A DNA stretch of 60,105 nt from Gammaproteobacteria bacterium (GTDB lineage Bacteria > Pseudomonadota > Gammaproteobacteria > Ga0077536): NCBI GenBank assembly GCA_047611905.1, contig JBLFWZ010000003.1, forward strand, positions 1-60,105, read 5' to 3'. Of this stretch, positions 17,373 through 57,184 are shown piece by piece. Both the position numbers and the translations under genes were made by a program. The notes beneath the pieces are model-generated. The model ran no database searches. It worked only from the letters and a program-made list of their open reading frames with translations, and had not been told where the DNA came from. How positions within the stretch are numbered: position 1 is the stretch's first letter; every line of letters begins with the position of its first letter.

Positions 17373-17398
17373 GTTGTCTTGCGTTGGGCTAAAAGAGG

Positions 17399-18064
17399 CT
17401 AGTAACTGGGCGGTGTAATTGCGTACATAACTATCGTTTCGCCGTCGCTAACATTCCGGTAGCGATGCGGTTCGCTACTCGGGAAATTGAAACTATCGCC
17501 TTCCTCTAAGATAAACGAACGTTCTCCAACGGTTATCTCAATCTTGCCTTGCATCACCATGCCGCCTTCTTCGCCACGGTGAACGTATTTGTCGCCGGTG
17601 CTGGCCTGCGGCTCGAAATGCGTCAAGATTAATTCCAAGCTGCCTTCGAGAGTTGGCGACAACAAGTAATCGACAAAGCCCTCGCGAAAAATTATTCTGC
17701 GACGATTGGCCTTGCGCACGACGAGACCTTTTTCATTCGATGGGCCTTGGTTCCCGCCGCCAAAAAACCACGCGACTGTTACATCGAGCGAGCGCGCAAC
17801 CGATCCAAGCGCTTTCACGGAAGGTGTGGAGATATTTCGCTCTATTTGACTCAGATATCCGATGGACAAATCGGCCCGTTCGGCAAGTTCCGTTAGTGAT
17901 AAGCGCCGAGCTTTACGTAGCGCGCGGAGTTCGCTGCCATCAAATGTGCAGGGCTCGGCAGACTCCTGCGTAAACACGTCATCGTTATCTAATTGCTCGT
18001 GCAAGACGGCTTTTCCTGCTTCGCCCATGACCGACTTAATAATGCCGGCGAGGGATGTCCGCAC
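17399..18064 (-). CDS. XRE-family HTH + cupin transcriptional regulator
   Basis: The HTH reads LRKARRLSLTELAERADLSIGYLSQIERNISTPSVKAL. The C-terminal cupin reads HRGEEGGMVMQGKIEITVGERSFILEEGDSFNFPSSEPHRYRN. The start is GTG 18064 or ATG 18028. Confidence 0.8.
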   Translation of the reverse strand: MRTSLAGIIKSVMGEAGKAVLHEQLDNDDVFTQESAEPCTFDGSELRALRKARRLSLTELAERADLSIGYLSQIERNISTPSVKALGSVARSLDVTVAWFFGGGNQGPSNEKGLVVRKANRRRIIFREGFVDYLLSPTLEGSLELILTHFEPQASTGDKYVHRGEEGGMVMQGKIEITVGERSFILEEGDSFNFPSSEPHRYRNVSDGETIVMYAITPPSY

Positions 18065-18082
18065 GAAGCGGACGCAGTCTGA

Positions 18083-19999
18083 TCACGGTAAAGGATCTAG
18101 CAAGTAGTTGTCACCCTCGCGCATGTTATCTTTCAGCCAGGTCGACGAGTCTGGAGATGTCGGTTGGATTTCGCTAACGGGGCCGCGCTCGGTGGACAAT
18201 TTCGCACGTCGCGCAAGCGTTGCCTCCGTGTCTAATTCGAATGTAGCCGCATCCATCACGACACCATAGACGTCCCGTCCGGTCGCGAAACTGATAATTT
18301 CGTCGCGCACGTGATCACAGACTTTCTGTGCATCTCGGCTCAGCGGATCGCCGTAACCACCACCGCCGGAAGACACGCCAACCCACATTTCTCCAGGTTC
18401 GATTTTCATGTAGCCCTTACTCGAACAATAGTCGCGTTTCCCACTATCCAAGTATTCGCGATAATTGCCGCCGCCGATGCCGGCTGTGCCACCGAATAAG
18501 CCATACGGTGGATTCGCTGCACCATCACCGGTGGCGTGACATTCCATCGGCGTGTCGTACGGTCGGACTTCAATGCGGATACCGGTGCCGCCCATGGTCT
18601 CGCCGTGTCCCATGGAATCCGTTTCGACTTCGTGGTGATCCATCATGATCGGATAGAGCAGCTCGCTCATTTCTGTGCTGATAATTTTTAGTCCGCCCAT
18701 TCCCGAAGACGTCATGATCAACGGCCATCCGTCGGCGTTTTTCGAAGCGCCGCCACCGGAACCCCCATTAAAGAACATGGCGGCCCAATCGGCGGGCTCG
18801 GCACCACGTTGATCGACACCGGAAATCGATGGGATGCAGTGAAACCCACCATAGCCAGCCGAAGAACGTTCCGGCGCTGCTTTCGCAAGTGCTTTCCAGA
18901 CGACTTCTTGTTCTTGTCCTGCCGGGCACAAGGTTGCCATTGCTGTTGAAGCAGGATATTTCGCTTTTACGATGGAGCCTTCCGGCGCCTCGCAAGTGAT
19001 GTGCCGCAAACACCCATCGTTGTGCGGGATATCCGGATCGATTGCAGTGAGGATCGGAATACCAGCAGACGCTTCCATGACACCTTGTGTGCCATTGGTA
19101 CCGCCCGCGCCTTGCGGTGCACTGCCCGCGAAATCGACGTGAATGTGATCGTCTTTGACGGTTACCGCTGCTTTTACGACCAGGTTCGTATTACCCATGC
19201 CGTCCGAATCGACCCAAGACTCCGCTTCGTAGGTGCCATCTGGAATGTTGCGGATCTCTTCGCTCGTTCGGCGATCCGAGTAATCTAGAATCGCTTCAAT
19301 GTAATTTGATAACTCGGCCGGGCCATATTCATCGACTAATTCAACCATGCGCCGTCGACCGGTCCAGATGGAGCCGAGTTGTGCTTTTAAATCGCCGTAC
19401 AACAGTTCGCGATAGCGCACGTTGGCGAGATACATGTTGATCACATCCTGGCGCGGCTCGCCTTTTTCGTAAAATTTGATCGGCGGCAGTTGCAAGGCTT
19501 CTTGCCAGACGTCTTTCGCACTCGGTGCCACGCTGGTTGCTTCATACGCGCCGCAATCGAGTTGGTGTCCTTTGGTGACAGCCCAAAACAAATGTTCGCC
19601 TTTGTAAAATACCGGGCACGCAGTGACGAAATCGCCGACATGGGTATTGCCGCTGTAGGGATCGTTACTAACGATGACGTCGCCGTCGTAAACGTTGCCC
19701 TCAAAGGCTTTCACCATCGAGCGCAAAATCACGTGTAAAGAGTTCGTATGAATGGGCAACGCGTCCATCATGCAGACTTGTCGAGCGTGGACGTCATAGA
19801 TCGCGCAAGAAAAGTCACGCGCCAACGCGAGTATGGAAGTCCACGAGGTGTATTCCAACGCCAAAGTCATTTCGCGCGCAATGGTGTTGAAGCGGTTCAA
19901 AATTACCGAGAACGTTATCGGGTCGATGTTTTCGTCCGCGAGTAGTCCGAAATCATCTTGTCCCAATCCAAGCTTGTCGACAGGGTCTATTGTGCTCAT
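18083..19999 (-). CDS. hyuB: Hydantoinase B/oxoprolinase family protein (HyuB-like subunit)
   Basis: 638 aa. The N-terminus DPITFSVILNRFNTIAREMTLALEYTSWTSILALARDFSCAIYD is the typical HyuB start. Confidence 0.85.
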   Translation of the reverse strand: MSTIDPVDKLGLGQDDFGLLADENIDPITFSVILNRFNTIAREMTLALEYTSWTSILALARDFSCAIYDVHARQVCMMDALPIHTNSLHVILRSMVKAFEGNVYDGDVIVSNDPYSGNTHVGDFVTACPVFYKGEHLFWAVTKGHQLDCGAYEATSVAPSAKDVWQEALQLPPIKFYEKGEPRQDVINMYLANVRYRELLYGDLKAQLGSIWTGRRRMVELVDEYGPAELSNYIEAILDYSDRRTSEEIRNIPDGTYEAESWVDSDGMGNTNLVVKAAVTVKDDHIHVDFAGSAPQGAGGTNGTQGVMEASAGIPILTAIDPDIPHNDGCLRHITCEAPEGSIVKAKYPASTAMATLCPAGQEQEVVWKALAKAAPERSSAGYGGFHCIPSISGVDQRGAEPADWAAMFFNGGSGGGASKNADGWPLIMTSSGMGGLKIISTEMSELLYPIMMDHHEVETDSMGHGETMGGTGIRIEVRPYDTPMECHATGDGAANPPYGLFGGTAGIGGGNYREYLDSGKRDYCSSKGYMKIEPGEMWVGVSSGGGGYGDPLSRDAQKVCDHVRDEIISFATGRDVYGVVMDAATFELDTEATLARRAKLSTERGPVSEIQPTSPDSSTWLKDNMREGDNYLLDPLP

Positions 20000-20112
20000 G
20001 GTTTACTCTCCATTTTCGCGCCGGTCCGACAATCGGCAAATCGTAATGCAGTTTCGGACCGCGCCTAGTACTCCGACAGTACAATATGGTCGGAGAAATA
20101 ACGGTTGCGTCT

Positions 20113-22176
20113 TTATATGTTTAGTACAAAATCGCCAAATTCGTTAACTTCCAGATTTTGGCCCGGGAATACGACGATGGTGGTGTTGGCTTGCTCGACC
20201 ACTGCCGGACCGACGACAGTCATTGACCGCTCCAATCTATCACCATCGTAGATGTTGGTCGTGCGATAGTCATCAATATCGCCAAAATACACTCTTCGCG
20301 TGCCTTTTTCCGCCACTGAGAGCGGTTTGTCGGTCTCTTCAAACCGCGCAATTGCAGGCGAATCGACTTTGCGATGAGCGACCGCCCGCCAGTGAAATAA
20401 ATCCACCGGGCTCTCGGCAACATTATAAGTGAACATGCGCTCATGGAGGTCATGGAAAGTCTGCTCCATTTCCTTGATCGAGCTTTCGGTTAGGTCTCCC
20501 AAGGATGGTATCGGAATGGTTAATTCATGAATTTGTGCCGGATACTTAGCATCTGCAAACCGGCTTATCGTTACTTCGCCTTCTGGAAAGCCCTCTTCGA
20601 TCATGTCGTCCATGGCGCGACGTTCCAACTCGGCGAGCACTTTGTTAGCGCCAACTAAATCAAAGCGTCCGGTATTCGTGGCAAACGCTTGCATGTAGTC
20701 GTGACGTACGTCGCTTACGATCATGCCGAACGAACAAAATACGCCGCTGTAACGCGGGATGATGGCTTTCGTCATCCCTAAAGTTCGAGCCAACATGCCC
20801 GCGTGGATAGCACCCGCGCCACCGCCAACCACTAGCGCGTAATGACGGGGGTCGATGCCGCGTTCGATCGAGACAACTCTAATCGCGTCGACCATGTTGT
20901 TATTAATGATGCGAAAGATGCCGTGCGCGGCCTCGGGAACACTTAAGTTAAGTGGTTGCGCCACGTGCATGTCGACGGCGCGTGCCGATAGTTGTGGGTC
21001 GATGTCTCGACGTCCGCCGAGAAAATATTCCGGGTTGATGTAGCCGAGGACGACATTCGCGTCTGTGCATGTTGGCGATGTTCCACCTTGGTCGTAGCAC
21101 GCCGGTCCGGGTTCTGCACCTGCACTTTGCGGTCCGACTTGTAGCGCCCCACCTTTATCGATCCAAGCGATGCTGCCGCCTCCGGCGCCGATTGAATGCA
21201 CATCGACTGCCGCAACTCCCACCGGCATTTCATGCACCCGAAGTTCGCGGGTAAGCTCAGGCGCGCCCTTACTGACCATGGACACATCGAAGCTCGTACC
21301 GCCCATGTCAACTGTGATCACATCAAGCATGCCGATTCGCTCGGAGCAGTACAAACCCGCCACGGGCGCTGCCGCCGGCCCTGAGGCGAGCGAGTAAATC
21401 GGTCGTTGGAGGATTTTATTCACCGTCGAACAACCACCGTTGAGTTGCATGATCAACAGTGGATGTTGAAATCCATTGCCGTGCAAAAATTCTTCTAACT
21501 CAATCATGTAACGCGAAATACCCGGCAACACATAGGCACTTAAAATCGTGCAAGTCGTGCGTTCCCATTCGCGGATCATGGGTAAGACATCAGAACTCAA
21601 CACGACCGGGATCCCGGGTAGTTCCTCTGCAAGAATCGTTTTCACTCGTTGCTCGTGATCGGGATTGATAATCGACCACAGGAACGCGACGGCGACCGAT
21701 TCAACCTTTTCGCTGCGCAGCTTCTTGGCTGCCGCCCGGACGGAATCCTCGTCAAGCGCTTTAGTGACTTCACCGGAATAATTCACCCGTTCCGTTATTG
21801 GAATGCGTAGATAGCGAGGAATGAAATCTTCCGGTGGTGGTAACTGGATGTTGTAGCGCTCCGGCTTAAAGCCGTCGCGAAAATGGATGACATCGCGAAA
21901 ACCTTCGGTACACAGTAATGCTGCTTTCGGGCCATTGCGTTGGATGACCGTATTGGTCGCGATCGTTTGGCCGTGCACAAACAGGTCGATTTTCTTCAGG
22001 AATTCTTCGAGTCCGGTACCGGATTGCTCAGCGAGCGCGCGGATCCCTTGTTGGATGGCCTGGGCGGGATCGCGTGGTGTCGTCGATTCCTTCCATAACT
22101 TTATTTGTCCGTCTCCGTCGAGCAATGAAAAGTCGGTAAATGTTCCGCCAATGTCGACGCCGAGTACGTACTGCAT
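20113..22176 (-). CDS. hyuA: Hydantoinase A/oxoprolinase family protein (HyuA-like, ATP-binding subunit)
   Basis: MQYVLGVDIGGTFTDFSLL is the ASKHA-type N-terminus typical of HyuA. The ORF track extends to 22290, but those 38 extra residues are unlike the family, so I chose ATG at 22176. Confidence 0.85.
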   Translation of the reverse strand: MQYVLGVDIGGTFTDFSLLDGDGQIKLWKESTTPRDPAQAIQQGIRALAEQSGTGLEEFLKKIDLFVHGQTIATNTVIQRNGPKAALLCTEGFRDVIHFRDGFKPERYNIQLPPPEDFIPRYLRIPITERVNYSGEVTKALDEDSVRAAAKKLRSEKVESVAVAFLWSIINPDHEQRVKTILAEELPGIPVVLSSDVLPMIREWERTTCTILSAYVLPGISRYMIELEEFLHGNGFQHPLLIMQLNGGCSTVNKILQRPIYSLASGPAAAPVAGLYCSERIGMLDVITVDMGGTSFDVSMVSKGAPELTRELRVHEMPVGVAAVDVHSIGAGGGSIAWIDKGGALQVGPQSAGAEPGPACYDQGGTSPTCTDANVVLGYINPEYFLGGRRDIDPQLSARAVDMHVAQPLNLSVPEAAHGIFRIINNNMVDAIRVVSIERGIDPRHYALVVGGGAGAIHAGMLARTLGMTKAIIPRYSGVFCSFGMIVSDVRHDYMQAFATNTGRFDLVGANKVLAELERRAMDDMIEEGFPEGEVTISRFADAKYPAQIHELTIPIPSLGDLTESSIKEMEQTFHDLHERMFTYNVAESPVDLFHWRAVAHRKVDSPAIARFEETDKPLSVAEKGTRRVYFGDIDDYRTTNIYDGDRLERSMTVVGPAVVEQANTTIVVFPGQNLEVNEFGDFVLNI

Positions 22177-33268: not shown

Positions 33269-36200
33269 ATGCATTGCGAAAACTGCCGACACACCAATAG
33301 CCCGAACGATAAGTTTTGCTCACAGTGTGGAACGCCACAAATTGCTCGATGCTCGGGCTGCAACGCGGATCTAAAGTTAGCTGCGAAGTTTTGTTCGGAC
33401 TGCGGGACAGCCGTCTCCAAGGCCGAATCTCCAGCCGCGCTGGATCTGCGGGCGACACCGTCACCGAGTCGCACTGTCGCAGATTACACGCCGAAGCATC
33501 TCGCAGAGAAGATCTTGCAATCGCGCTCGGCGCTCGAGGGCGAACGTAAGCAGGTCACGGTCCTGTTTGCCGATGTTAAAGGTTCAATGGACTTGGCCGC
33601 GCGAGTAGGGGCGGAGGATTGGCATGAATTGCTTGACCGCTTTTTCGCGATTTTAACCGAAGGCGTACATCGCTACGAAGGCACCATTAATCAGTACACG
33701 GGTGATGGCGTGATGGCTTTATTCGGTGCGCCCATTTCTCACGAAGATCATGCACAACGGGCGTGTTATGCAGCGGTGCAAATGCGCGACGAACTGCGTC
33801 GCCTATCGGTCGAATTGCGCATGGAAAAAGGCATCGACCTCGGCGTTCGCATGGGAATAAATTCTGGCGAGGTGGTGGTTGGAAGGATCGGCGACGATTT
33901 ACGCATGGATTACACGGCGCAAGGGCACACCGTTGGGGTTGCGCAGCGTCTTGAACAACTCGCGGAGTCCGGTCACGCCTATATCAGTGAGCATACCGCG
34001 CGCTTGGTTGAAGGATACTTTCAATTATCCGACCTAGGCACATCGAAAATATCCGGCTCCGATGTGCCGGTCGGTGTATTCGATCTGGATACCACAACCA
34101 ATGTCCGTACCCGGCTGCAAGTATCAAGATCGCGTGGTCTCACGCAGTTCGTCGGCCGTAAGGACGAAATGGATGCATTGAATGCCGCACTTGCCCGCGC
34201 GCGCAATGGCCATGGACAAGTAGTCGGCGTTGTGGGGGAACCCGGATTAGGCAAAAGCCGTTTATGTTTTGAATTTGTCGAGCGCTGCCGCGCACAAAGC
34301 ATACCGATCTACGAAGCGCATTGCCCATCTCACGGTCAACAGATCCCATTTATTCCTATCCGGGAATTATTCCGTAATTATTTCGATATCTCAGACCAAG
34401 ACACAGGGACTCAAGCGCGGCAGAAAATCGCCGGCATGTTGTTGCTGCTCGATCCGGAGATGCATAGCGGGTTGCCTGTGTTATTCGATTTTTTAGGGGT
34501 GGGCGATCCAGACCACCCGGTGGGATCAATCGAAGCCGACGTGCGTCAGCGACAAATGTTTGACTTACTCCACAAGATATCGCGGGTGCAAAACGAGCGT
34601 GGTCTGGCCTCACTTATTTTGATTGATGACTTGCATTGGATTGATAGCTGGAGCGACGAGTTTGTCGCTCAAATGGTTGAAGCAACTCAAGCAAGTCACA
34701 CGCTCTTGCTGGTTAATTTTCGACCGGAGTATCAAGCTAACTGGACTAGCAAGCCCTACTATCAGCAATTGCCGCTGGTACCACTTGGGGCGGACGACGT
34801 GCAACAAATGGTCACGAGCTTGTTAGGGGCTGATGCGTTAGTTCAGGTACTGATTGAGAAGATCAGGGACTGGACGACCGGTAACCCCTTGTACGCCGAA
34901 GAAGTCATAAATACCTTAATCGAAACCGGTCAGCTGCAAGGCAAGCTCGGGTCGTACCGCCTGAGTACAGATGTCGCGGCACTTGAAGTGCCAGCCAGTG
35001 TGCAAGCGATTATCGCGGCACGAATCGATCGCTTAACCGAACGCGATAAAACGCTTCTGCAGGCCGCCTCAGTTCTCGGCAAAGAGTTCTCACGGCCGAT
35101 CGTCGAAAAGGTAGCGAGTTTACCCGCGGGTGAATTCACGCCAACGATTGAAGCGCTTAAGAATGCGGACTTTATTTACGAGATCGCCTTATATCCAACC
35201 GTCGAATATTCGTTTAAGCATCCACTTGTGCACGAAGTAGCTTACGATTCGCAGCTAAGAGACCGGCGCGCCCAGGTCCACGCGGCCGCTGCAAGTGCGA
35301 TCGAGACTTTGGAATTCGAGCGGCTGGACGAATACGCTTCAATGCTCGCTTACCATTGGGAGAACGCCAATGTCTACGATGATGCCTTGCGCTGGCATCA
35401 ACGCGCCGCATTAGTTTTAAATCTTAGTGATCCGCGCGCCGCCTTGCATCATTGGACAAAAGTTCGAAGTCTTGTAGATATGGTAGACAATAAGGGGCAC
35501 GCGTTAACAGCCGGTGCACAAGCGTGCGGCGAAATGATGCACTTGCAGTGGCGCCTCGGCGAATCGGAAGCCGTGGCTCACGAACTATTTCGCGATGGTA
35601 GTTTACTCGCCGACCTTGCCGGCAACATTCCTGCCAAGGCGGTTCTCACAGCAAGCTACGCGGCGTTGCGCGGTATCTCCGGTGGCTATGCGAATGACTA
35701 CGTGCGCTACGGTGAAGAGGCCGCAATATTGGCGGCCCAGACGGACGATATCGAACTCAAACTGTGCATGCGTAGTTGGCACGTCTGGGGCCTGGCATTT
35801 CGCGGCGATAACGATGCAGTGGTGCTCGCGGCTAATGAAATTCTAGACGTGATTCCGACCGACCCTGAGATAGGAATAGCCTATTTCCCTGGCACCTTGC
35901 GCTGGTCCGTGTATTCGCAACGCGGGCTGGGTCTTGCGATGCAAGGCCAACGCGCTGCCGCATTTTCCGACTTCGAAACTTGTATTCGTGTCGCCGGCGG
36001 ACGCGCAGAATCAATTGGCTACTCAGCTCCGATCCTCAGCGTATTAGCAAACTACTTCGGTGATTTTGCGCGGGCGCTTAATCTGGCGCGAATCTCGCTC
36101 GAGATAACCGGATCGGATCCCGCTATTTTGGGCGCGACCGTTGCCATGGCATCGTGTTTCATTAATGAAGGTAAACTTGAGGAGGCTGCAATCTGGGGTC

Positions 36201-36646
36201 AGCGCGCGCATAGTTTGCTCGCGGAAAGTACGAGTTATTCGCCGATTCACCCGGTCGTTCACGCTGTTCTGGCAGATATTGAACTTGCCTTAGGAAACCC
36301 GCAAGAAGCGTCCCGTTTGGCCATCCAAACGATCGAATTTTGCCAGCCGAGAGAATTATTATGGTTTCCGGGTCCTTGGCTATCGCGGGCGCAGGCTTAC
36401 ACCGAGTTAAACGATCGCGATGGCGCGCATGCATCGCTACTCGAAGCGCAGGCTTTAATAGAAAGGAACAGCGCACGACTCCTTCAACCGTTTCTACACG
36501 AGCGCCAGGCGCATTTTGCGGCCGTGTTTAACGATGTTTGGCGCGAAGACCAGGAATTGGCCACGACACTGAGTCTATTCGAAGCAATGGGGGCTATTGA
36601 TCAGATCAGCCGTCTACAGCAAAAACTCGCGAAGACTCTTGCATGA
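33269..36646 (+). CDS. Double zinc-ribbon + class III nucleotidyl cyclase + STAND/AAA P-loop ATPase + TPR-like repeat protein (copy 1)
   Basis: 1125 aa. Zinc ribbons read CENC..CSQC and CSGC..CSDC. The cyclase domain reads ERKQVTVLFADVKGSMDL, YTGDGVMALFGAP and GINSGEVVVGRIG. Walker A is GVVGEPGLGKSRL and Walker B is LILIDDLHWID. A long helical-repeat C-terminus follows. Confidence 0.85.
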   Translation: MHCENCRHTNSPNDKFCSQCGTPQIARCSGCNADLKLAAKFCSDCGTAVSKAESPAALDLRATPSPSRTVADYTPKHLAEKILQSRSALEGERKQVTVLFADVKGSMDLAARVGAEDWHELLDRFFAILTEGVHRYEGTINQYTGDGVMALFGAPISHEDHAQRACYAAVQMRDELRRLSVELRMEKGIDLGVRMGINSGEVVVGRIGDDLRMDYTAQGHTVGVAQRLEQLAESGHAYISEHTARLVEGYFQLSDLGTSKISGSDVPVGVFDLDTTTNVRTRLQVSRSRGLTQFVGRKDEMDALNAALARARNGHGQVVGVVGEPGLGKSRLCFEFVERCRAQSIPIYEAHCPSHGQQIPFIPIRELFRNYFDISDQDTGTQARQKIAGMLLLLDPEMHSGLPVLFDFLGVGDPDHPVGSIEADVRQRQMFDLLHKISRVQNERGLASLILIDDLHWIDSWSDEFVAQMVEATQASHTLLLVNFRPEYQANWTSKPYYQQLPLVPLGADDVQQMVTSLLGADALVQVLIEKIRDWTTGNPLYAEEVINTLIETGQLQGKLGSYRLSTDVAALEVPASVQAIIAARIDRLTERDKTLLQAASVLGKEFSRPIVEKVASLPAGEFTPTIEALKNADFIYEIALYPTVEYSFKHPLVHEVAYDSQLRDRRAQVHAAAASAIETLEFERLDEYASMLAYHWENANVYDDALRWHQRAALVLNLSDPRAALHHWTKVRSLVDMVDNKGHALTAGAQACGEMMHLQWRLGESEAVAHELFRDGSLLADLAGNIPAKAVLTASYAALRGISGGYANDYVRYGEEAAILAAQTDDIELKLCMRSWHVWGLAFRGDNDAVVLAANEILDVIPTDPEIGIAYFPGTLRWSVYSQRGLGLAMQGQRAAAFSDFETCIRVAGGRAESIGYSAPILSVLANYFGDFARALNLARISLEITGSDPAILGATVAMASCFINEGKLEEAAIWGQRAHSLLAESTSYSPIHPVVHAVLADIELALGNPQEASRLAIQTIEFCQPRELLWFPGPWLSRAQAYTELNDRDGAHASLLEAQALIERNSARLLQPFLHERQAHFAAVFNDVWREDQELATTLSLFEAMGAIDQISRLQQKLAKTLA

Positions 36647-39600
36647 GTTTTCTCGAAGATATTTCTAAGGTGCGCGAGCACCTTAAAGAAAATGGGCGTA
36701 TTTCTTTTCGCGCACTGAAGCGCGAATTCAGCTTGGACGACGAGGGTCTTGAAGAGATCATCGAAGAACTCGTCGATATTCAGCAAATCGCGCGTCGTGA
36801 AGAAAAATTGTTGGCGTGGATAGGGGAGCCGAATGTCGTCGACCGTAGGTCTCAGTCGGACAAAAGTTCGTCGTCCAGAATAAATGCCGATCCGAGTAGC
36901 TACACACCGCAGCACCTCGCCGAGAAAATTCTGCAAAGTCGTGCGGCACTCGAAGGCGAACGAAAGCAAGTCACTGTTTTGTTCGCTGATGTAAAAGGGT
37001 CGATGGATTTAGCGGCGCAAGTCGGTGCGGAGAGTTGGCACGTCGTTCTCGACAGATTCTTCTCTATTTTGGGTGAAGGGATCCACCGTTACGAAGGAAC
37101 CATCAACCAATACACCGGAGACGGCGTGATGGCGTTGTTCGGCGCGCCAATCGCTCACGAAGATCACGCGCAGCGCGCTTGCTACGCGGCTTTGCAGTTG
37201 CGTGACGAATTACGCCGGTTATCCGTTGAGTTGCGCATGGAGCAAGGCATCGATTTCGATGTTCGCATTGGCATTAACTCAGGCGATGTAGTGGTGGGGA
37301 AAATCGGCGATGACCTGCGCATGGATTACACCGCTCAAGGTCACACCGTCGGGATCGCGCAACGGCTTGAACAACTGGCTGAAAGTGGCCACGTATACAT
37401 CAGCGAGCATACGGCGCGCTTAGTTGACAGCTATTTTAGTGTCACAGATTTGGGTAAATCGAAAATTTCCGGGTCGGAATCCGCGCTCGGCGTCTTTGAT
37501 CTTGATGATGCCACCCAAGTCCGCACGCGCCTGCAAGTGTCGCGCGCTCGCGGTTTGACGCAATTTGTTGGTCGTGATGACGAGATGCACTTATTGAAGT
37601 CGGCGCTGAAGCGCGCTCAATCTGGCTACGGTCAAGTCGTCGGTGTGGTCGGTGATCCGGGGCTGGGTAAGAGTCGTTTGTGTTACGAGTTCGTGCAAGC
37701 GTGCCGCCGCGAAGGAGTCGCGGTCTACGAGTGCCATTGCCCGTCCCATGGCAAGACAATCCCGTTTATTCCTATCTTGGAACTATTCCGGAATTATTTC
37801 GATATTTCGGTACGGGATTCGGCGTCCCAGGCGCGGCAGAAAATTGCCGGCACTTTGGTTTTGCTCGATTCATCTCTGCAAAACGCCCTGCCAAGCTTAT
37901 TCGATTTTCTTGGCGTCCATGACCCCAGTCTCACCGCGCCGCCAGCTGAACCGGATGCGCGTCAGCGCCAGCTTTTCGACATGGTGCATAAGATTGTCCG
38001 CGCGCAAAGCGAGCGCGGGGTCGCCGCGGTTGTGATGGTCGACGATCTTCACTGGGTGGACAATTGGAGCAATGAGTTCATCGGACAGATGGTCGAGGCG
38101 GTTGAGAACTCGCACACTCTGGTGTTGCTGAATTTTCGACCCGAGTACAGCGCGTCTTGGAGCGCAAAATCCTATTACCAGCAACTGCCACTGGTACCGC
38201 TCGGCGCCGATGCGGTCCGCGATTTAGTCGCCGGGCTGTTGGGGGAACACGAATCCGTACAAGCACTGACCGAGAAAATCATGCAATGGACGGCGGGCAA
38301 TCCGCTGTTTGCCGAAGAAGTGATCAATACCTTAATTGAGACGCAACAACTGGTGGGAAGACGCGGCTCCTATCGATTGACCCGAGACGTCACCGCACTT
38401 GATGTGCCGGCCACGGTGCAAGCGATTATCGCCGCGCGTATTGACCGTCTAGATGAGTTTGAGAAAACCCTATTACACGCCGCTTCCGTCGTGGGGAAAG
38501 AATTTTCACGAGCGCTCATAGAGCGGATATCGGGCATCCCTGCTGCGGTGCTTTCGTCAACCTTAGAGCGCCTTAAGACGTCCGACTTCATATTCGAAAC
38601 GGCGCTTTATCCGACGGTTGAATACTCGTTCAAACATCCTTTAGTGCGCGAAGTGGCTTACGAAACGCAGTTGCGCGATAAATTGGCCGAACGACACTCT
38701 ACAGTTGCGCTCGCCGTTGAAGAACTGGAAGAAAATCGCATTGACGAATTCGCCTCGATGCTCGCTTATCACTGGGAGCTGGCTCAAAACCACGACGAAG
38801 CATTGCTCTGGAATGAGCGCGCGGCAAAAGTTGCCAGCGGCAACGATCCGGTCGTTGCGCTAGCTCACTGGCGTAAAGTTAGAGCTTTGGTCGATGTGGT
38901 GGTGCCGAGTAAGGCGGTGTTTGCCATTGGAGCACAAGCGGTTGGTGCGATGATGCAGCTGCAATGGCGGATGGGGATCTCGCTAGAGGAAGCCGAGCAG
39001 CAATTTGAAGACGGCAGCGGGCTTGCCGAGAAAGCGGGTGACATCGCACTACAGGCGACCTTAACTGGCGGGTATTCAATTTCGCTCGGTTTGTCGAGCG
39101 GGTACGCGAAGCACTATGTCAGCTACGGCGCGAAAGCGGCTGAACTCGCCGATCAAACCGATGATTCAATGATTCAAAACACCATGCGTAACTGGGAAGC
39201 CTGGGGCTTGCTCATGTGTACTCGGCTCGATGAATCTGCGGCGCGTTTCGACGAAATTGCACTTCGGATCCCTGATGAACCGAACTATGGCGCGGAGATC
39301 GTATTTCCGAATTTGCACTGGTCGTACTTGCACGGACGGAGTTACGCTAATTGTATCCGCGGCAATATCGATCTCTGCAAGATCGATATTCGTAACGCAC
39401 GCAGTTCTATCGACCACCGCCATGAGATTCGAGCGTTTAGCGATGTCATGGAATTTCTAATGCTCTTCCCGTTGGGCGAATTTTCGCGTTCGAGGGCATT
39501 GGCGCAAAACGCACTTAGTGTTGCAGAGACCACGATGGCCCGAGTGTTAGCTTATATGGCAATGGCGCGTCAGCATTGGCACGACCGCGAATTCGACCAA

Positions 39601-40047
39601 GCAGAGAGCTTTGCGCGCAATTCATTAGAATTATCCGAAGCAGAAAACAGTTGCGGTTGTTGGCGTGGCGCGGTGCTTGCACCGCTTATTGAAACGGAAG
39701 TCGCCACGGGCAGAGCCGAATCCGGCAGGCAGCGCGGCCTCGAGGCGATCGCTTACTGTCACGAACGTGAGCTGTACTGGGATATGCCGTTATGGCTGGC
39801 GCTGGCGCGAGCCTGCACGGTTGTTGGTGATCAAGACGGCGCTGTTGCTGTGCTCGATGAATTAGAACAGATCATCAATCGCTGCAACGCTAATCTTTAC
39901 CGACCTTTTTTACATGAGTATCGAAGCGAATTCGCGACAAAGTATAAAGAACGTTGGGACGTAGATACCGAGCGACAACTGGCGATCAATGGATTCACGC
40001 TTCTCGGTGCCGAAGGACAGTTAGATCAACTAAAAAGTGCGCTCTAA
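36643..40047 (+). CDS. Winged-helix-like N-domain + class III nucleotidyl cyclase + STAND/AAA P-loop ATPase + TPR-like repeat protein (copy 2, paralogue of 33269..36646)
   Basis: 1134 aa. The cyclase and ATPase motifs match copy 1 (GVVGDPGLGKSRL, VMVDDLHWVD). The N-terminus is different (MSFLEDISKVREHLKENGRISFRALKREFSLDDEGLEEIIEELV). Its ATG overlaps the stop of copy 1 (ATGA 36643-36646). Confidence 0.85.
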   Translation: MSFLEDISKVREHLKENGRISFRALKREFSLDDEGLEEIIEELVDIQQIARREEKLLAWIGEPNVVDRRSQSDKSSSSRINADPSSYTPQHLAEKILQSRAALEGERKQVTVLFADVKGSMDLAAQVGAESWHVVLDRFFSILGEGIHRYEGTINQYTGDGVMALFGAPIAHEDHAQRACYAALQLRDELRRLSVELRMEQGIDFDVRIGINSGDVVVGKIGDDLRMDYTAQGHTVGIAQRLEQLAESGHVYISEHTARLVDSYFSVTDLGKSKISGSESALGVFDLDDATQVRTRLQVSRARGLTQFVGRDDEMHLLKSALKRAQSGYGQVVGVVGDPGLGKSRLCYEFVQACRREGVAVYECHCPSHGKTIPFIPILELFRNYFDISVRDSASQARQKIAGTLVLLDSSLQNALPSLFDFLGVHDPSLTAPPAEPDARQRQLFDMVHKIVRAQSERGVAAVVMVDDLHWVDNWSNEFIGQMVEAVENSHTLVLLNFRPEYSASWSAKSYYQQLPLVPLGADAVRDLVAGLLGEHESVQALTEKIMQWTAGNPLFAEEVINTLIETQQLVGRRGSYRLTRDVTALDVPATVQAIIAARIDRLDEFEKTLLHAASVVGKEFSRALIERISGIPAAVLSSTLERLKTSDFIFETALYPTVEYSFKHPLVREVAYETQLRDKLAERHSTVALAVEELEENRIDEFASMLAYHWELAQNHDEALLWNERAAKVASGNDPVVALAHWRKVRALVDVVVPSKAVFAIGAQAVGAMMQLQWRMGISLEEAEQQFEDGSGLAEKAGDIALQATLTGGYSISLGLSSGYAKHYVSYGAKAAELADQTDDSMIQNTMRNWEAWGLLMCTRLDESAARFDEIALRIPDEPNYGAEIVFPNLHWSYLHGRSYANCIRGNIDLCKIDIRNARSSIDHRHEIRAFSDVMEFLMLFPLGEFSRSRALAQNALSVAETTMARVLAYMAMARQHWHDREFDQAESFARNSLELSEAENSCGCWRGAVLAPLIETEVATGRAESGRQRGLEAIAYCHERELYWDMPLWLALARACTVVGDQDGAVAVLDELEQIINRCNANLYRPFLHEYRSEFATKYKERWDVDTERQLAINGFTLLGAEGQLDQLKSAL

Positions 40048-50800: not shown

Positions 50801-51060
50801 GATGGATCTCCTAGGTAGGGGGCTGGACCGTTAACATGGACCCGCATATCGGGGTGCTCGAGACGCAGTCTCGGAATCGACAACAATGCCGGTCGTCGCA
50901 ATATCGCCGCCCGGTAAACTAGCACAATTGCGCTCTAAGGTGCGCCTCAATCGCGACGTCGACACGTAGTGCTGCCGACGCGCTTCGTCAAGCCCGGACA
51001 TTGGTGTAAAAGCCGGATAATATTCCGTTCAGGTTGTTGCATTTAAGATGTGAACGCGCC

Positions 51061-52230
51061 ATGAGTTCTGAAGATTTTTACACGCAACTGTTTGAGCATC
51101 GCCTCTCGATTAGCGAATTGTTGGGCGAGCCACAGCATTTCCGTTCGGTGCCTGCCGACTGGCATGTCGTCATTACCGACATCAAGGGTTCTACTGAACT
51201 CGTGGCTTTGGGCCATCACGAAACGATTAATCTTATTGCCACTGGCAGCATTATCGCCGCCTTGAACATTGCCTACGCGCGAAATATCGAAATTCCTTTT
51301 TTCTTCGGCGGCGACGGTGCGACTTTGTTAGTGCCGGAGAAATTACTCGACGAAACCCTCCAGGCGCTAGAAGAACATAGTCGCAACACGATAAATAATT
51401 ACGCGATGACATTGAGAGTGGGATCGTTGCAAGTCGCGAATGTCGTTGAACAAGGACATTCGATAGAGCTCGCCAAGCTTTTTCGCAACCAGGCGTTTTC
51501 CATACCAATCGTCGTCGGTGACGGACTCGTGTTTGCCGAAAAATTGATCAAGGACCGCAATGAAAATCTGATACCGAAGGTGATAGAAGAGGAATCAAAT
51601 TTAGATTTAACGGGTATGGAGTGTCGCTGGGATCGAATCGGACCCCCGCTCGAAAGCGGGGAAGTCGTGTGCCTGCTAGTGAACGTGTTGAACCAACAAT
51701 ATTCCGCTAGGGTGCTGAAATCTGTTATCGATCATATCGATGCGGTTTATGGCCCGCGGCCGCTTCGAAATCCGATTTCGAAAGAACGCCTACGGCTGGA
51801 TTCGAGCGCTGCTGCGATCGCGAAAGAAACCACAGTAAAGCTCGGTCGCTACGATTGGCGCTATGCCATCGAGCATTGGTTACGCACGGCGCTTATCGGG
51901 CCGGCGTTTATGCGCTACACAGCCGATGGCCAAGGCTATGTCGCCAGTGTGCCAGAGCTATCCGACACGCTCACGATCGACGGACGAATTAACACCGTTA
52001 TTGCGGGCACGGGCGAACAAAGGAGGAAACTAATAGCGGAACTCGATCGCTTGGAAGAGGGCGGCGCGATTGCGTACGGTCTGTATGCTACTTCGGCCAG
52101 TATCATGTCGTGTTACGTGCGTAATCGAGAAGATCAGCATATTCATTTTATCGACGGTGCCGATGGCGGCTACACCCAAGCGGCGACCCTGTTGAAGCGT
52201 AAACTTCGTGAGCGATCGCCGCCCGACTAA
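51061..52230 (+). CDS. DUF3095-family protein (nucleotidyl-cyclase-like fold suspected)
   Basis: WHVVITDIKGSTELV ... FFFGGDGATLLVP mimic the two metal-Asp motifs of class III cyclases (F.DI.GfT / GDG....F). I recall this pattern as DUF3095. ATG 51061 is preferred over TTG 51034. Confidence 0.5.
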   Translation: MSSEDFYTQLFEHRLSISELLGEPQHFRSVPADWHVVITDIKGSTELVALGHHETINLIATGSIIAALNIAYARNIEIPFFFGGDGATLLVPEKLLDETLQALEEHSRNTINNYAMTLRVGSLQVANVVEQGHSIELAKLFRNQAFSIPIVVGDGLVFAEKLIKDRNENLIPKVIEEESNLDLTGMECRWDRIGPPLESGEVVCLLVNVLNQQYSARVLKSVIDHIDAVYGPRPLRNPISKERLRLDSSAAAIAKETTVKLGRYDWRYAIEHWLRTALIGPAFMRYTADGQGYVASVPELSDTLTIDGRINTVIAGTGEQRRKLIAELDRLEEGGAIAYGLYATSASIMSCYVRNREDQHIHFIDGADGGYTQAATLLKRKLRERSPPD

Positions 52231-56788: not shown

Positions 56789-57184
56789 ATGCCACGAATA
56801 CTAATTGCCGAGGACAATGACGATAATCGCGAAATTCTAAGCGAGTTCCTCACTGATGAAGGACATGAAGTCACCACGGCCGGCAACGCGGCGGACGCGA
56901 TTGCCTTGGCAGTAAAATTGCGGCCCGCCCTGATTCTAATGGATCTGCAGATGTCGGACTCTGACAGTTCGCCCAGTCTAAATGACAGCGCAGGCGTCAC
57001 CGCCGCCAGTTTTCTTAGGGCTCACTCAACAACCGTAACGATCCCAATTGTAGCGCTGAGCGGCTATAACCTCTCATCTGCGGATCCGTCCATCGAGGCC
57101 GGACGGTTCACGTGCGTTGCGAGCAAACCGTTTGATTTTGCCGAACTAGCAAGCTTAATTACCACGTTACTTGAAACCGCATGA
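56789..57184 (+). CDS. Stand-alone response-regulator receiver (CheY-like) with a Ser/Asp-rich insertion after the phospho-acceptor Asp
   Basis: It has MPRILIAEDNDDN, ALILMDLQM (acceptor Asp), IVALSG and ASKPF. An insertion SDSDSSPSLNDSAGVT follows the DLQM motif. The start is uncertain (56648 or 56789). Confidence 0.75.
   Translation: MPRILIAEDNDDNREILSEFLTDEGHEVTTAGNAADAIALAVKLRPALILMDLQMSDSDSSPSLNDSAGVTAASFLRAHSTTVTIPIVALSGYNLSSADPSIEAGRFTCVASKPFDFAELASLITTLLETA

What the first reader, a model, noticed from the sequence alone, without database searches (positions are those of the whole stretch)
33269..40047. Tandem, translationally coupled paralogous cyclase-STAND ATPase-TPR giants with different N-terminal modules
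Seen:
- Two same-strand genes of 1125 and 1134 aa overlap by 4 nt (ATGA at 36643-36646).
- Both carry a class III cyclase domain, a P-loop NTPase (GVVG[ED]PGLGKSRL, DDLHW[IV]D) and about 500 aa of helical repeats.
- The cyclase and ATPase regions are nearly identical at protein level. The DNA differs at many third-codon positions (for example gaacgtaagcaggtcacggtcctgtttgcc versus gaacgaaagcaagtcactgttttgttcgct). This looks like an old duplication kept under purifying selection, not an assembly artefact.
- The ends differ. Copy 1 starts with two CxxC...CxxC zinc ribbons. Copy 2 starts with a ~60-aa winged-helix-like domain. The C-terminal repeat regions have diverged most.

Established knowledge: class III cyclases act as dimers, and cyclase-ATPase multidomain proteins exist (M. 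tuberculosis Rv0386 group).

Inference: an obligate heterodimer or a two-input sensor pair whose ligand and output are unknown.
Basis: partly seen in the sequence, partly recalled or inferred. Interest (0 to 1): 0.65.

Follow-up and report, generated by a model that had tools for sequence, protein, structure and literature searches.

The report
Tandem cyclase-STAND-TPR sensor paralogues
Two adjacent genes in a marine or ice gammaproteobacterium encode old, diverged copies of a very common but unstudied bacterial sensor protein (nucleotide cyclase + STAND ATPase + TPR sensor); they look like two separate sensors in a variable gene array, not a fixed two-protein machine.

Summary
ORFs 33269-36646 (c1, 1125 aa) and 36643-40047 (c2, 1134 aa) overlap in ATGA. 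Both are class III cyclase + AAA_16/STAND NTPase + TPR-like superhelix. They are 57% identical with no gaps, and synonymous sites are saturated. c1 starts with a double zinc ribbon (DZR). c2 starts with a FeoC-like three-helix module (wH).

The obligate-heterodimer reading is not supported:
- Both copies carry the same catalytic set (Asp, Asp, Gln, Thr, Gly, Arg, Ser), so there is no complementary degeneracy.
- In 154 related loci, 61 genes are singletons and 16 sit in arrays of 2-5 with varying N-terminal types.
- c1's closest orthologue (76%) stands alone in a different context. c2 has no orthologue above 58%.
- The window's DZR-then-wH order was found nowhere else.

Best reading: two co-transcribed, independently evolving ligand sensors. 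NOD oligomerisation would dimerise the cyclase domains.

The Lys-to-Gln and Asn-to-Gly changes are clade-wide. Activity is uncertain, but 17 related loci place an MMPL transporter beside family genes, 14 of them with a cNMP-binding part. The window has no such gene.

Verdict: an ordinary new member of a known, uncharacterised kind.

The parts
33269..36646 (+). c1: DZR - class III cyclase - STAND NTPase - TPR protein, 1125 aa
   Evidence: ORF, translation, Pfam. The N-terminus MHCENCRH aligns from residue 1 with homologues.
33272..33409 (+). c1 double zinc ribbon: four CxxC motifs at aa 3, 17, 28 and 42
   Evidence: Pfam DZR PF12773, E 7.9e-9, 36 bits against a cut-off of 27.3. CxxC positions.
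33485..33517 (+). c1 conserved YTPKHLAEKIL helix just before the cyclase domain
   Evidence: Position. Alignment A1 reports T88, P89 and H91 (c2 numbering, the matching c2 segment YTPQHLAEKIL) as invariant in 88 homologues. The c2 model has helix 90-98 there. Calling it a signal-transducing helix is my inference.
33545..34060 (+). c1 class III cyclase homology domain. Key residues: D102, Q142, D146, T216, H220, G223, R227, S262.
   Evidence: Pfam PF00211, 72.4 bits. Aligned to CyaB 3r5g. Residue columns.
34145..34732 (+). c1 STAND nucleotide-binding domain: FVGRKDEM (hhGRExE-type) 294-301, Walker A GEPGLGKS 323-330, Walker B LILIDDLHWID 449-459, NFRPEY 483-488
   Evidence: Pfam AAA_16, 74.8 bits. 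Motif positions.
35261..36643 (+). c1 C-terminal TPR-like sensor region; the last 260 aa are the most diverged part
   Evidence: TPR_2, TPR_19 and TPR_12 hits. pN is 0.47-0.65 against c2. Profile A1 hits the AfsR and MalT TPR regions. The start boundary is approximate, transferred from the c2 model.
36643..36646 (+). ATGA overlap: c1 stop codon TGA and c2 start codon ATG
   Evidence: Four-base overlaps or 3-nt gaps recur in arrays elsewhere: L007, L025, L002, L040, L042. No promoter-like or terminator-like site lies between the genes beyond chance.
36643..40047 (+). c2: wH-like module - class III cyclase - STAND NTPase - TPR-like protein, 1134 aa
   Evidence: ORF, translation, Pfam. AF2 model has pLDDT 86.3 and pTM 0.78. 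Foldseek top hit is 6mfv, a STAND-TPR protein, followed by CyaB and Apaf-1.
36643..36813 (+). c2 N-terminal three-helix FeoC-like module (aa 1-57), followed by a disordered linker (aa 58-88)
   Evidence: FeoC PF09012: 20.2 bits in c2, 21.9 and 35.3 bits in relatives. 1547 representative clusters at E<=1e-3; six of the ten mid-length hits scanned carry a cyclase domain after it. AF2 helices 2-17, 22-29 and 33-57.
36961..37479 (+). c2 class III cyclase homology domain. Key residues: D116, Q156, D160, T230, H234, G237, R241, S276.
   Evidence: Pfam PF00211, 79 bits. Residue columns.
37561..38667 (+). c2 NOD: NBD with FVGRDDEM 308-315, Walker A GDPGLGKS 337-344, Walker B VVMVDDLHWVD 463-473; helical domain 522-566; winged-helix domain 570-675
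   Evidence: Pfam AAA_16, 86 bits. Motifs. Secondary structure of the AF2 model. Foldseek hits to 6mfv and Apaf-1.
38674..40044 (+). c2 TPR-like helical superhelix (aa 678-1134), the presumed sensor
   Evidence: About 24 helices with pLDDT mostly above 90. Weak TPR_MalT match at 19.6 bits. At most 35% identical to any database protein.

Best explanation
c1 and c2 are two co-transcribed members of a very large, experimentally uncharacterised family of cytosolic sensor cyclases. The family architecture is: small N-terminal module, class III cyclase domain, MalT/AfsR-like STAND NTPase, TPR-like sensor.

The pair is one instance of the variable tandem arrays (1 to 5 copies) that this family forms by repeated duplication, N-terminal module swapping and fast divergence of the sensor end. 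It is not a conserved two-subunit unit.

Proposed mechanism:
1. Each protein rests as an ADP-bound, autoinhibited monomer.
2. A ligand, different for c1 and c2, binds the C-terminal TPR-like superhelix.
3. The NOD exchanges ADP for ATP and oligomerises.
4. This brings the N-terminal cyclase domains together into the dimer that class III cyclases need for catalysis.
5. A cyclic nucleotide is made.
6. The signal is read by cNMP-binding proteins. In many relatives this is an adjacent MMPL/RND-type transporter with a C-terminal cNMP-binding domain.

Shown here: the architecture, intact P-loop and Walker B, the STAND fold, the age of the duplication, the pattern of selection, array variability, and the transporter linkage in other genomes.

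Inferred: ligand binding, oligomerisation-driven cyclase activation, the identity of the nucleotide product, and independence of the two proteins.
For: **Architecture and fold**
- Pfam domains.
- AF2 model with pLDDT 86.
- Foldseek top hit 6mfv (STAND with TPR sensor), CyaB at TMt 0.89, then Apaf-1.
- Profile A1 hits the AfsR and MalT TPR regions.
- STAND motifs are intact in both copies.

**Family size**

**Arrays are variable**
- 61 singletons against 16 arrays of 2-5 copies.
- Adjacent-pair types: DZR->DZR 12, wH->DZR 3, wH->wH 1, DZR->wH 0 outside the window.
- c1's 76% orthologue L001 is alone and in a different context.
- c2 has no close orthologue.
- wH-type genes are not monophyletic.
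- In L002 the adjacent wH and DZR genes are 92-100% identical in the cyclase and NOD but have unrelated N-termini. Modules are therefore swapped.

**Selection pattern fits a conserved output and a diversified sensor**
- pN is 0.07-0.11 in the cyclase and 0.47-0.65 in the C-terminus, with saturated pS.

**No complementary catalytic degeneracy**
- Both copies have an identical catalytic set.

**The output is probably a cyclic nucleotide**
- 17 distinct related loci carry an MMPL-type transporter gene within 10 kb of family genes. In 14 the match reaches the C-terminal cNMP-binding part; three are cut by a contig end.
- Pfam confirmed the MMPL + cNMP_binding architecture in the five tested.
- The gene is usually on the same strand.
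- These loci include genes with the same DQDT-HG-R signature as c1 and c2.

**Context**
- The surroundings are housekeeping and metabolic genes, with no mobile-element or defence genes.
Against: **Catalytic site**
- The site departs from the canonical one at three positions.
   - The purine-binding Lys is Gln.
   - The transition-state Asn is Gly.
   - The terminal phosphate-binding Lys is Ser.
- In other class III cyclases, loss of the Asn lowers activity strongly (my knowledge of the mutagenesis literature, not tested here).
- Cyclase activity is therefore not assured.

**Missing reader of the signal**
- The 60-kb window contains no cNMP-binding protein and no MMPL homologue. The link to an output is borrowed from other genomes.

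**Independence is not proven**
- wH-type genes sit next to DZR-type genes more often than the base rate (3 of 8 wH genes in the survey, plus the window). This could mean a functional pairing.

**No functional data**
- No expression data could be found.
- No family member close to these has been studied biochemically, as far as the searchable literature shows.

**Method limits**
- The survey loci were fetched by short peptide patterns.
- Genes were called crudely.
- The tree is neighbour-joining only.
Confidence: 0.6

Rival explanations
1. Obligate heterodimer or hetero-oligomer. c1 and c2 assemble into one mixed complex. Their cyclase domains form a heterodimeric active site, and the two different N-terminal and C-terminal modules give two inputs to one output.
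For: - The 4-nt overlap suggests equimolar, coupled synthesis.
- The cyclase and NOD surfaces are well conserved between the copies, at 83-87% and 57-73% identity. Mixed assemblies are therefore sterically plausible.
- wH-type and DZR-type genes are adjacent in three other loci: L002/L079, L003/L080 and L017.
Against: - The catalytic residue sets are identical in both copies, with no complementary loss.
- Most family genes are singletons, and arrays hold 2-5 copies of mixed or identical type.
- c1's closest orthologue is alone.
- c2 has no orthologue.
- The gene order in the window (DZR then wH) is the reverse of the three other cases.
- The L002 pair is an independent, younger duplication.
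- Tight spacing also occurs in DZR-DZR arrays: L007, L040 and L042.
Confidence: 0.1
2. NLR-like immune or conflict sensors. The family is a diversifying set of STAND pattern-recognition receptors. Their TPR ends recognise foreign (for example phage) proteins, and their cyclase domain is the effector that raises an alarm nucleotide, as in Pycsar.
For: - The architecture is a STAND NOD with a TPR sensor and an N-terminal effector-like enzyme.
- There are many paralogues per genome and tandem arrays.
- The sensor end evolves fastest.
- N-terminal modules are shuffled.
- cNMP cyclase domains occur as signal-generating modules in predicted conflict systems (PMC7159879).
- PADLOC PycC models match the cyclase domain at E about 1e-22.
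Against: - The PycC matches are no better than the generic Pfam cyclase match, and no PADLOC STAND model matched.
- The window around the pair is housekeeping metabolism, with no mobile-element or defence genes.
- Among 129 immediate neighbours in other loci, no defence or mobile-element family is among the 25 most recurrent Pfam families.
- The recurrent partner is a transporter, not a killing effector.
- The 2026 survey of defence-associated STANDs does not mention cyclases in its main text.
- The family is stably present as single genes in Bradyrhizobium species.
Confidence: 0.12
3. Pseudo-cyclase. In this clade the cyclase homology domain no longer cyclises nucleotides. It serves as a nucleotide-binding or dimerisation module, and the real output is protein-protein interaction by the oligomerised STAND scaffold.
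For: - Asn to Gly at the transition-state position and Lys to Gln at the purine position occur in 117 and 118 of 119 close homologues.
- The terminal Lys is Ser in c1 and c2.
- More distant family members keep the canonical D-K-D-T-N-R-K set, so the change is derived.
- Inactive cyclase domains are described in other multidomain systems (PMC7159879).
Against: - Both metal-binding Asp residues and the catalytic Arg are invariant in 119 of 119.
- The domain is the most strongly constrained part of the protein, with pN 0.07-0.11.
- The Gln at the Lys position matches the active M. tuberculosis enzyme Rv0386 (Castro et al. 2005, from memory; the paper is listed in PMC3789758).
- Genes with the same DQDT-HG-R signature lie next to transporter genes with a cNMP-binding part: L002 and L024.
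Confidence: 0.13

Closest known systems
M. tuberculosis Rv0386 group (Rv0386, Rv1358, Rv2488c): class III cyclase + AAA/STAND ATPase + LuxR-type HTH
   Same: - N-terminal cyclase homology domain directly followed by an AAA_16/MalT-type P-loop NTPase.
- Gln replaces the purine-specifying Lys (Rv0386 Gln-Asn pair: Castro et al. 2005, from memory).
   Different: - c1 and c2 have no C-terminal DNA-binding domain; the TPR-like superhelix runs to the end.
- They have an extra N-terminal DZR or FeoC-like module.
- The second specificity residue is Thr, not Asn.
- The transition-state Asn is Gly.
Leptospira LA_4008 / Myxococcus MXAN_4545 type: cyclase(s) + AAA-ATPase + TPR (PMC3789758)
   Same: Soluble cyclase homology domain, then an AAA-ATPase, then C-terminal TPR repeats. 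They are described as reminiscent of Rv0386.
   Different: - LA_4008 has two tandem cyclase domains in one chain and no DZR or wH module.
- It was linked to raising cAMP in host cells.
- c1 and c2 come from a free-living marine or ice bacterium.
MalT / AfsR / PH0952 (PDB 6mfv) STAND regulators with TPR sensors
   Same: - NBD-HD-WHD NOD followed by a TPR-like sensor.
- Foldseek top hit is 6mfv.
- The profile hits the AfsR (8jke) and MalT (1hz4) TPR regions.
- Likely the same logic of ligand-released autoinhibition and ATP-dependent oligomerisation.
   Different: The effector is a nucleotide cyclase at the N-terminus, not a DNA-binding domain. There are many paralogues per genome.
Full-length mammalian soluble adenylyl cyclase (ADCY10)
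   Same: Class III cyclase catalytic part followed by a P-loop NTPase and TPR-like C-terminal region (my knowledge). The ADCY10 catalytic domains match weakly.
   Different: - ADCY10 has two cyclase domains in one chain forming a pseudo-heterodimer.
- c1 and c2 have one each with identical residue sets.
- Only the catalytic part of ADCY10 is in the PDB hits.
TIGR03903 TOMM system kinase/cyclase fusion protein
   Same: NCBIfam's best match (E 4.5e-84) covers the cyclase-NOD-arm region, model positions 281-929.
   Different: - The score of 283 bits is far below the 705.75 cut-off.
- There is no N-terminal kinase.
- There are no TOMM biosynthesis genes nearby.
Pycsar PycC cyclases
   Same: Class III-type cyclase fold. 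PADLOC PycC models match at E 7e-22.
   Different: - No adjacent Pycsar effector.
- No defence context.
- PycC proteins lack the STAND-TPR part.
- The match is at the level of generic domain homology.

Membership tests
Class III nucleotide cyclase (cyclase homology domain) | Pfam PF00211 match above the gathering score | tested here: met
   c1 scores 72.4 bits and c2 79.0 bits against a cut-off of 21.9. The fold matches CyaB 3r5g at TMt 0.89.
Class III nucleotide cyclase (cyclase homology domain) | Two metal-binding Asp residues | tested here: met
   c1 D102 and D146; c2 D116 and D160. Invariant in 119 of 119 homologues.
Class III nucleotide cyclase (cyclase homology domain) | Transition-state Asn-Arg pair | tested here: not met
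   The Arg is present (c1 R227, c2 R241). The Asn is Gly (c1 G223, c2 G237) in 117 of 119 close homologues. More distant family members keep Asn.
Class III nucleotide cyclase (cyclase homology domain) | Canonical purine-specifying pair (Lys with Asp/Thr for ATP, Glu with Cys/Ser for GTP) | tested here: not met
   The pair is Gln (c1 Q142, c2 Q156) with Thr (T216, T230). The substrate cannot be read from the sequence.
STAND NTPases | P-loop NTPase with Walker A, Walker B (hhhhDD) and the upstream hhGRExE-type motif | tested here: met
   FVGRKDEM / FVGRDDEM, GEPGLGKS / GDPGLGKS and LILIDDLHW / VVMVDDLHW. AAA_16 scores 75 and 86 bits.
STAND NTPases | NBD-helical domain-winged helix (NOD) fold followed by a repeat sensor | tested here: met
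   AF2 model. Foldseek top hit 6mfv at E 4.6e-13, and Apaf-1 3shf/1z6t at E about 1e-8.
MalT/AfsR-type STAND with TPR sensor | MalT-like TPR/superhelical sensor C-terminal to the NOD | tested here: inconclusive
   Profile A1 hits AfsR 8jke (E 1.9e-8) and MalT 1hz4 (E 3.5e-8) in the TPR region. Pfam TPR_MalT reaches only 19.6 bits against a cut-off of 45 in c2. No phylogeny of the NOD against named clades was made.
Rv0386 group (cyclase-ATPase-LuxR) | C-terminal LuxR-type helix-turn-helix | tested here: not met
   No HTH family was found in the C-terminal halves, even at E up to 10. Helical repeats run to the last residue.
Heterodimeric class III cyclases (mammalian C1/C2, soluble guanylyl cyclase alpha/beta) | Complementary loss of catalytic residues in the two partners | tested here: not met
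   c1 and c2 have identical residues at all seven positions: D, Q, D, T, G, R, S.
Conserved two-gene system (fixed c1-type plus c2-type pair) | Co-occurrence and conserved order of the two genes in other genomes | tested here: not met
   61 singletons against 16 arrays of varying composition. DZR->wH occurs only in the window. c1's orthologue is alone and c2 has no orthologue.
Pycsar | PycC cyclase with an adjacent cNMP-activated effector, in a defence context | tested here: not met
   The PADLOC PycC hits are at the level of generic domain homology. The window holds no cNMP-binding protein. The neighbours are metabolic genes.
Antiviral STAND (Avs, bNACHT and similar) | Match to a defence STAND model, or defence-island context | tested here: not met
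   No PADLOC hit other than PycC. No defence or mobile-element family is among the 25 most recurrent families in 129 neighbours.
TIGR03903 TOMM kinase/cyclase fusion | Score above the curated cut-off, an N-terminal kinase and a TOMM neighbourhood | tested here: not met
   283 and 281 bits against a cut-off of 705.75. Only model positions 281-929 match.
Double zinc ribbon (c1 N-terminus) | Pfam PF12773 above threshold, with four CxxC motifs | tested here: met
   36 bits against a cut-off of 27.3. CxxC motifs at aa 3, 17, 28 and 42.
FeoC-like winged helix (c2 N-terminus) | Pfam PF09012 above threshold | tested here: inconclusive
   c2 scores 20.2 bits against a cut-off of 21. The homologous modules of P0014 and P0170 score 21.9 and 35.3 bits. 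AF2 shows three helices and no wing.

The most novel reading that the evidence does not exclude
The family is a bacterial analogue of NLR gene clusters with a second-messenger output. On this reading, expanded and shuffled arrays of STAND-TPR receptors each recognise a different cue and fire a non-canonical cyclase (the Gln/Thr/Gly site may make an unusual cNMP). That nucleotide would gate dedicated cNMP-binding MMPL/RND or ABC exporters. Within that frame, mixed wH-type plus DZR-type neighbours such as c1 and c2 would work as sensor-helper pairs that co-oligomerise.
Probability: 0.1. Interest if true: 0.75.

Novelty: new member of a known kind. Interest (0 to 1): 0.3.

Why it matters
The pair itself is ordinary. 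The cyclase-STAND-TPR architecture is annotated thousands of times, and tandem copies are common.

The family as a whole is worth more attention:
- It is one of the largest sets of bacterial STAND proteins with an enzymatic, second-messenger output, yet no close member has been characterised.
- One clade carries a conserved non-canonical catalytic site (Gln, Thr, Gly).
- Family genes are repeatedly linked to MMPL transporters with a cNMP-binding domain. I found no paper in the searchable library that addresses this linkage.

If NOD oligomerisation does switch on a cyclase by forcing dimerisation, that would be a simple, testable link between STAND/NLR mechanics and cyclic-nucleotide signalling. 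It would also be relevant to the unexplained NTPase-TPR tail of mammalian soluble adenylyl cyclase.

Tried and rejected
**Rejected readings**
- Assembly artefact or collapsed repeat. A contig from run X1 spans the junction and depth is even.
- Recent gene conversion keeping the cyclase regions alike. pS is saturated everywhere.
- Positional orthology of the pair in the nearest genome (MAG OFTM106).
   - L001 shares no flanks with the window.
   - L039 shares the hydantoinase genes but carries a 47% paralogue.
   - The L002 wH-DZR-DZR array is an independent, younger duplication.
- Defence-system membership.
- A conserved partner gene inside the window. No cNMP-binding protein and no MMPL homologue is present.

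**Searches that led nowhere**
- No RNA run holds the sequence, so 'one copy is not expressed' could not be tested.
- PMC2447327, the survey of actinobacterial cyclases, is held almost without main text.
- Regex searches for cNMP-binding motifs failed.

**Literature**
- Searches found no study of DZR- or wH-cyclase-STAND proteins, or of MMPL-cNMP-binding fusions.

**Not possible with these tools**
- Hetero- versus homodimer modelling. The structure tool predicts single chains only.

Full report
**1. Observation**

- The window has two + strand ORFs: 33269-36646 (c1, 1125 aa) and 36643-40047 (c2, 1134 aa).
- They share the bases ATGA at 36643-36646.
- Pfam finds these domains:
   - c1: double zinc ribbon (aa 3-46, 36 bits), Guanylate_cyc (93-264, 72 bits), AAA_16 (293-481, 75 bits), and TPR repeats just above threshold.
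   - c2: Guanylate_cyc (107-279, 79 bits) and AAA_16 (307-494, 86 bits).
The 30-mers differ at seven synonymous positions.
- BLASTP gives 57% identity over 1050 aa with no gaps.
- By Nei-Gojobori counting, synonymous differences are saturated along the whole alignment (pS about 0.8).
- pN is 0.07-0.11 in the cyclase, 0.17-0.27 in the NTPase and 0.47-0.65 in the last 260 residues.
- The duplication is therefore old. There has been no recent gene conversion. Constraint falls from the cyclase towards the C-terminus.
- A Logan contig of run X1 crosses the junction (35505-37352) without a difference, and both genes have equal depth. The runs holding the sequence are ice and seawater metagenomes.
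- 'Nearly identical' is too strong. The cyclase domain is 83-87% identical and the NTPase 57-73%.

**2. What the proteins are**

- An AlphaFold2 model of c2, built on 88 homologues, has pLDDT 86.3 and pTM 0.78. It shows, in order:
   - three N-terminal helices (aa 1-57)
   - a disordered linker
   - a short conserved helix (YTPxHLAEKIL)
   - the cyclase fold (107-290)
   - a nucleotide-binding domain, a helical domain and a winged-helix domain (312-675)
   - a superhelix of about 24 helices (678-1134)
- The best Foldseek match in the PDB is 6mfv, a STAND ATPase with a TPR sensor. Next come bacterial class III cyclases (CyaB, TMt 0.89) and Apaf-1.
- A profile of the family also reaches the TPR regions of AfsR and MalT.
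- Both copies keep Walker A, Walker B (DDLHW) and the upstream FVGRxxEM motif.
- The c2 N-terminal module matches FeoC (a winged helix) at 20.2 bits, just under the 21-bit cut-off. Homologous modules score 21.9 and 35.3 bits.
- An exhaustive search found this module in 1547 representative clusters. The listed full-length hits are about 1100-1140 aa, like c2. Of ten mid-length hits scanned, six carry a cyclase domain after it.

**3. Catalytic site**

- I aligned the cyclase domains to P. aeruginosa CyaB (3r5g). Both copies keep the two metal-binding Asp residues and the catalytic Arg.
- Three positions deviate:
   - Gln replaces the purine-binding Lys.
   - Gly replaces the transition-state Asn.
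   - Ser replaces the terminal phosphate-binding Lys.
- The two copies are identical at all seven positions.
- Gln and Gly are clade-wide, in 118 and 117 of 119 close homologues.
- More distant members of the same architecture differ:
   - Chloroflexi-type members keep the canonical set D-K-D-T-N-R-K.
   - Desulfobacterales members have Gln but keep Asn.
   - Bradyrhizobium members have Lys-Asp but His for Asn.
- Two things follow.
   - There is no complementary degeneracy of the kind that defines heterodimeric class III cyclases.
   - Activity and substrate cannot be read from the sequence.
- The Gln recalls Rv0386, which is active and uses a Gln-Asn pair (Castro et al. 2005, from memory; cited in PMC3789758).

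**4. Is the pair a unit?**

- The family is very large.
- I fetched 154 related loci from species-representative genomes. I then called family genes, N-terminal types and spacing.
- Among loci with at least 4 kb of flank on both sides, 61 genes are singletons.
- Sixteen loci hold same-strand arrays: eleven pairs, two triplets, two quadruplets and one quintuplet.
- Adjacent pairs by type: DZR->DZR 12, wH->DZR 3, wH->wH 1, and a few others. The window's order, DZR->wH, was not found elsewhere.
- Four-base overlaps or 3-nt gaps also occur in DZR-only arrays (L007, L040, L042).
- c1's nearest orthologue (L001/P0002, 76%, MAG OFTM106) has no second copy within 10 kb and shares no flanking gene with the window.
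- c2 has no protein closer than 54-58% overall, or 35% in the sensor region, among 5.8 billion sequences.
- A neighbour-joining tree of the cyclase and NOD core gives two results:
   - c2 falls outside the c1 + L001 pair, so the duplication predates that split.
   - wH-type genes are scattered among DZR-type genes.
- In OFTM106 the adjacent wH and DZR genes of locus L002 are 92-100% identical through the cyclase and NOD (pS 0.43-0.70) but have unrelated N-termini. This is a separate, younger duplication with a module swap.
- One weak hint in the other direction: wH-type genes lie next to DZR-type genes more often than the base rate (3 of 8 in the survey, plus the window). The sample is small and biased by how the loci were fetched.

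**5. Context and output**

- The 60-kb window is ordinary chromosome. It contains:
   - glycerol metabolism genes
   - an Aas-like acyltransferase
   - AsmA
   - a GGDEF protein
   - Fpg/Nei, Ada and an AlkB-like oxygenase
   - hydantoinases, oxidoreductases and sulfotransferases
   - a family III CoA-transferase directly downstream
   - LysR, a thiolase and Rieske oxygenases
- There are no mobile-element or defence genes.
- PADLOC matches only PycC models, at the level of generic cyclase homology.
- No promoter-like or terminator-like site separates c1 from c2 beyond chance.
- A Pfam scan of 129 immediate neighbours of family genes in other loci found 121 different families and no dominant partner.
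- One unusual architecture recurs among those neighbours: an MMPL/RND-type transporter of about 900 aa with a C-terminal cyclic-nucleotide-binding domain.
- A tblastn search found an MMPL-type homologue within 10 kb of family genes in 17 distinct loci. In 14 the match reaches the cNMP-binding part; three are cut by a contig end.
- The lineages include unclassified Gammaproteobacteria (among them the L002 array of OFTM106), Cellvibrionales, Nevskiales/Salinisphaerales and Thermodesulfobacteriota.
- The transporter gene lies upstream, downstream or divergent, and usually on the same strand.
- In a Dehalococcoidia locus (L061) the neighbour is an ABC transporter with a cNMP-binding domain and an N-terminal double zinc ribbon like that of c1.
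- Genes with the same DQDT-HG-R signature as c1 and c2 are among those linked to the transporter.
- This supports a real cyclic-nucleotide output for the clade.
- The window itself has no cNMP-binding protein and no MMPL homologue.

**6. Mechanism**

- The best-supported reading is two co-transcribed but separately acting sensors.
- By analogy with MalT, AfsR, PH0952 and Apaf-1, I infer these steps:
   - Ligand binds the TPR-like superhelix and releases autoinhibition.
   - The NOD binds ATP and oligomerises.
   - The N-terminal cyclase domains, which need to dimerise to form active sites (established for class III cyclases), are brought together.
- The different C-terminal regions imply different ligands.
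- The DZR and wH modules sit before a conserved helix that leads into the cyclase. They may add a second input or a localisation signal.
- Shown: architecture, intact motifs, selection pattern, array variability, and transporter linkage elsewhere.
- Inferred: every step of activation, and the product.

**7. Rivals**

| Reading | Confidence | Main point |
|---|---|---|
| Obligate heterodimer | 0.10 | Contradicted by sections 3 and 4, but mixed oligomers cannot be excluded. |
| NLR-like immune sensors | 0.12 | Fits the expansion, arrays, fast-evolving sensor and module shuffling. Lacks any defence context here or in 129 neighbours. The 2026 STAND survey does not mention cyclases. |
| Pseudo-cyclase | 0.13 | Fits the Asn-to-Gly change. 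Contradicted by invariant metal-binding Asp and Arg residues, the strongest constraint falling on this domain, and the cNMP-binding neighbours. |

**8. Comparison with known systems, and novelty**

- The closest described relatives are:
   - the Rv0386 group, which has a C-terminal LuxR HTH that is absent here
   - Leptospira LA_4008 and Myxococcus MXAN_4545 (two cyclase domains + AAA + TPR; PMC3789758)
   - MalT/AfsR-type STANDs, which have a different effector
   - full-length mammalian soluble adenylyl cyclase
- NCBIfam's nearest model, TIGR03903, is matched far below its cut-off and only over the shared core.
- The literature searches found no study of close members.
- The pair is a new member of a known, annotated but uncharacterised kind. 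The tandem arrangement is lineage-specific.
- Interest in the finding as posed is low to moderate.
- The family-level features deserve follow-up: the non-canonical site, NLR-like array dynamics, and the link to cNMP-binding exporters.

**Limits**

- Loci were fetched by short peptide patterns from one genome per species.
- Gene calling in the loci was a simple longest-ORF procedure.
- The tree is neighbour-joining on one alignment.
- The structure is a monomer model.
- No expression data exist for this sequence.

Noticed in passing
L002:3803-6514 (also L024:7584-9929, L085:7119-9893, L123:7703-10540, L139:6644-9388 and 12 further loci): An MMPL/RND-type transporter of about 900 aa with a C-terminal cyclic-nucleotide-binding domain lies next to or near cyclase-STAND genes in 17 distinct loci from several bacterial orders. 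I found no paper on this fusion or this linkage. It is absent from the window.
   Followed up: partly
L061:6590-9664 (- strand): A Dehalococcoidia protein combines an N-terminal double zinc ribbon (like c1's), an ABC transporter (membrane and ATPase domains) and a C-terminal cNMP-binding domain. It lies beside a canonical-site family cyclase. The shared zinc ribbon may be a common docking or localisation module.
   Followed up: no
window 57181-57981 and 57938-58780 (+): A third class III cyclase domain (signature D-D-D-G-N-R-K) follows a response-regulator receiver domain, but in a different frame with a 44-nt overlap. This is either a frameshifted REC-cyclase fusion or two overlapping genes. 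Contigs of two runs (X1, X2) show the same sequence without an indel.
   Followed up: partly
window 51034-52230 (+) and 12807-14414 (+): The same 60 kb holds a DUF3095 protein (313 bits; from memory a cyclase-clan family) and a GGDEF diguanylate cyclase. The region is rich in nucleotide second-messenger enzymes.
   Followed up: no
L002:6596-9997 and 10001-13357: In the nearest genome (MAG OFTM106), neighbouring wH-type and DZR-type genes are 92-100% identical in the cyclase and NOD but have unrelated N-terminal modules and diverged sensors. This indicates recent duplication with an N-terminal swap, or concerted evolution of the core.
   Followed up: partly
L042 (Desulfobacteraceae) and L040: Arrays of five and four same-strand family genes. 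In L042 a stretch 29% identical to a cNMP-binding domain (139 aa) lies between array members at about 17028-17408.
   Followed up: no
window 18080-21400 versus L039:1-3243: The hydantoinase A/B genes are 80-86% identical at protein level to those of MAG OFTM106. There they lie about 7 kb from a different family paralogue (47% to c1), in inverted orientation. The family genes have moved or turned over relative to conserved metabolic genes.
   Followed up: partly
P0003 (1624 aa, JGI contig of 12374 nt): A predicted protein matches the family core, with zinc-ribbon domains listed although its N-terminus starts inside the pre-cyclase helix. It is probably two tandem copies read as one ORF, or a genuine fusion.
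   Followed up: no
window 36932 -> 33530 (run X1): One low-depth contig (depth 2) joins c2 back to the homologous place in c1, with 13 extra letters. It is most likely a third paralogue or strain variant aligning partly to each copy. Very high depth at 37118-37371 likewise reflects many paralogues in the sample.
   Followed up: no
window 15559-17372 (+): An Ada-type methyltransferase/AraC regulator is followed by an oxygenase of the damaged-DNA oxidative demethylation type. This looks like an adaptive-response operon and is unrelated to the finding.
   Followed up: no
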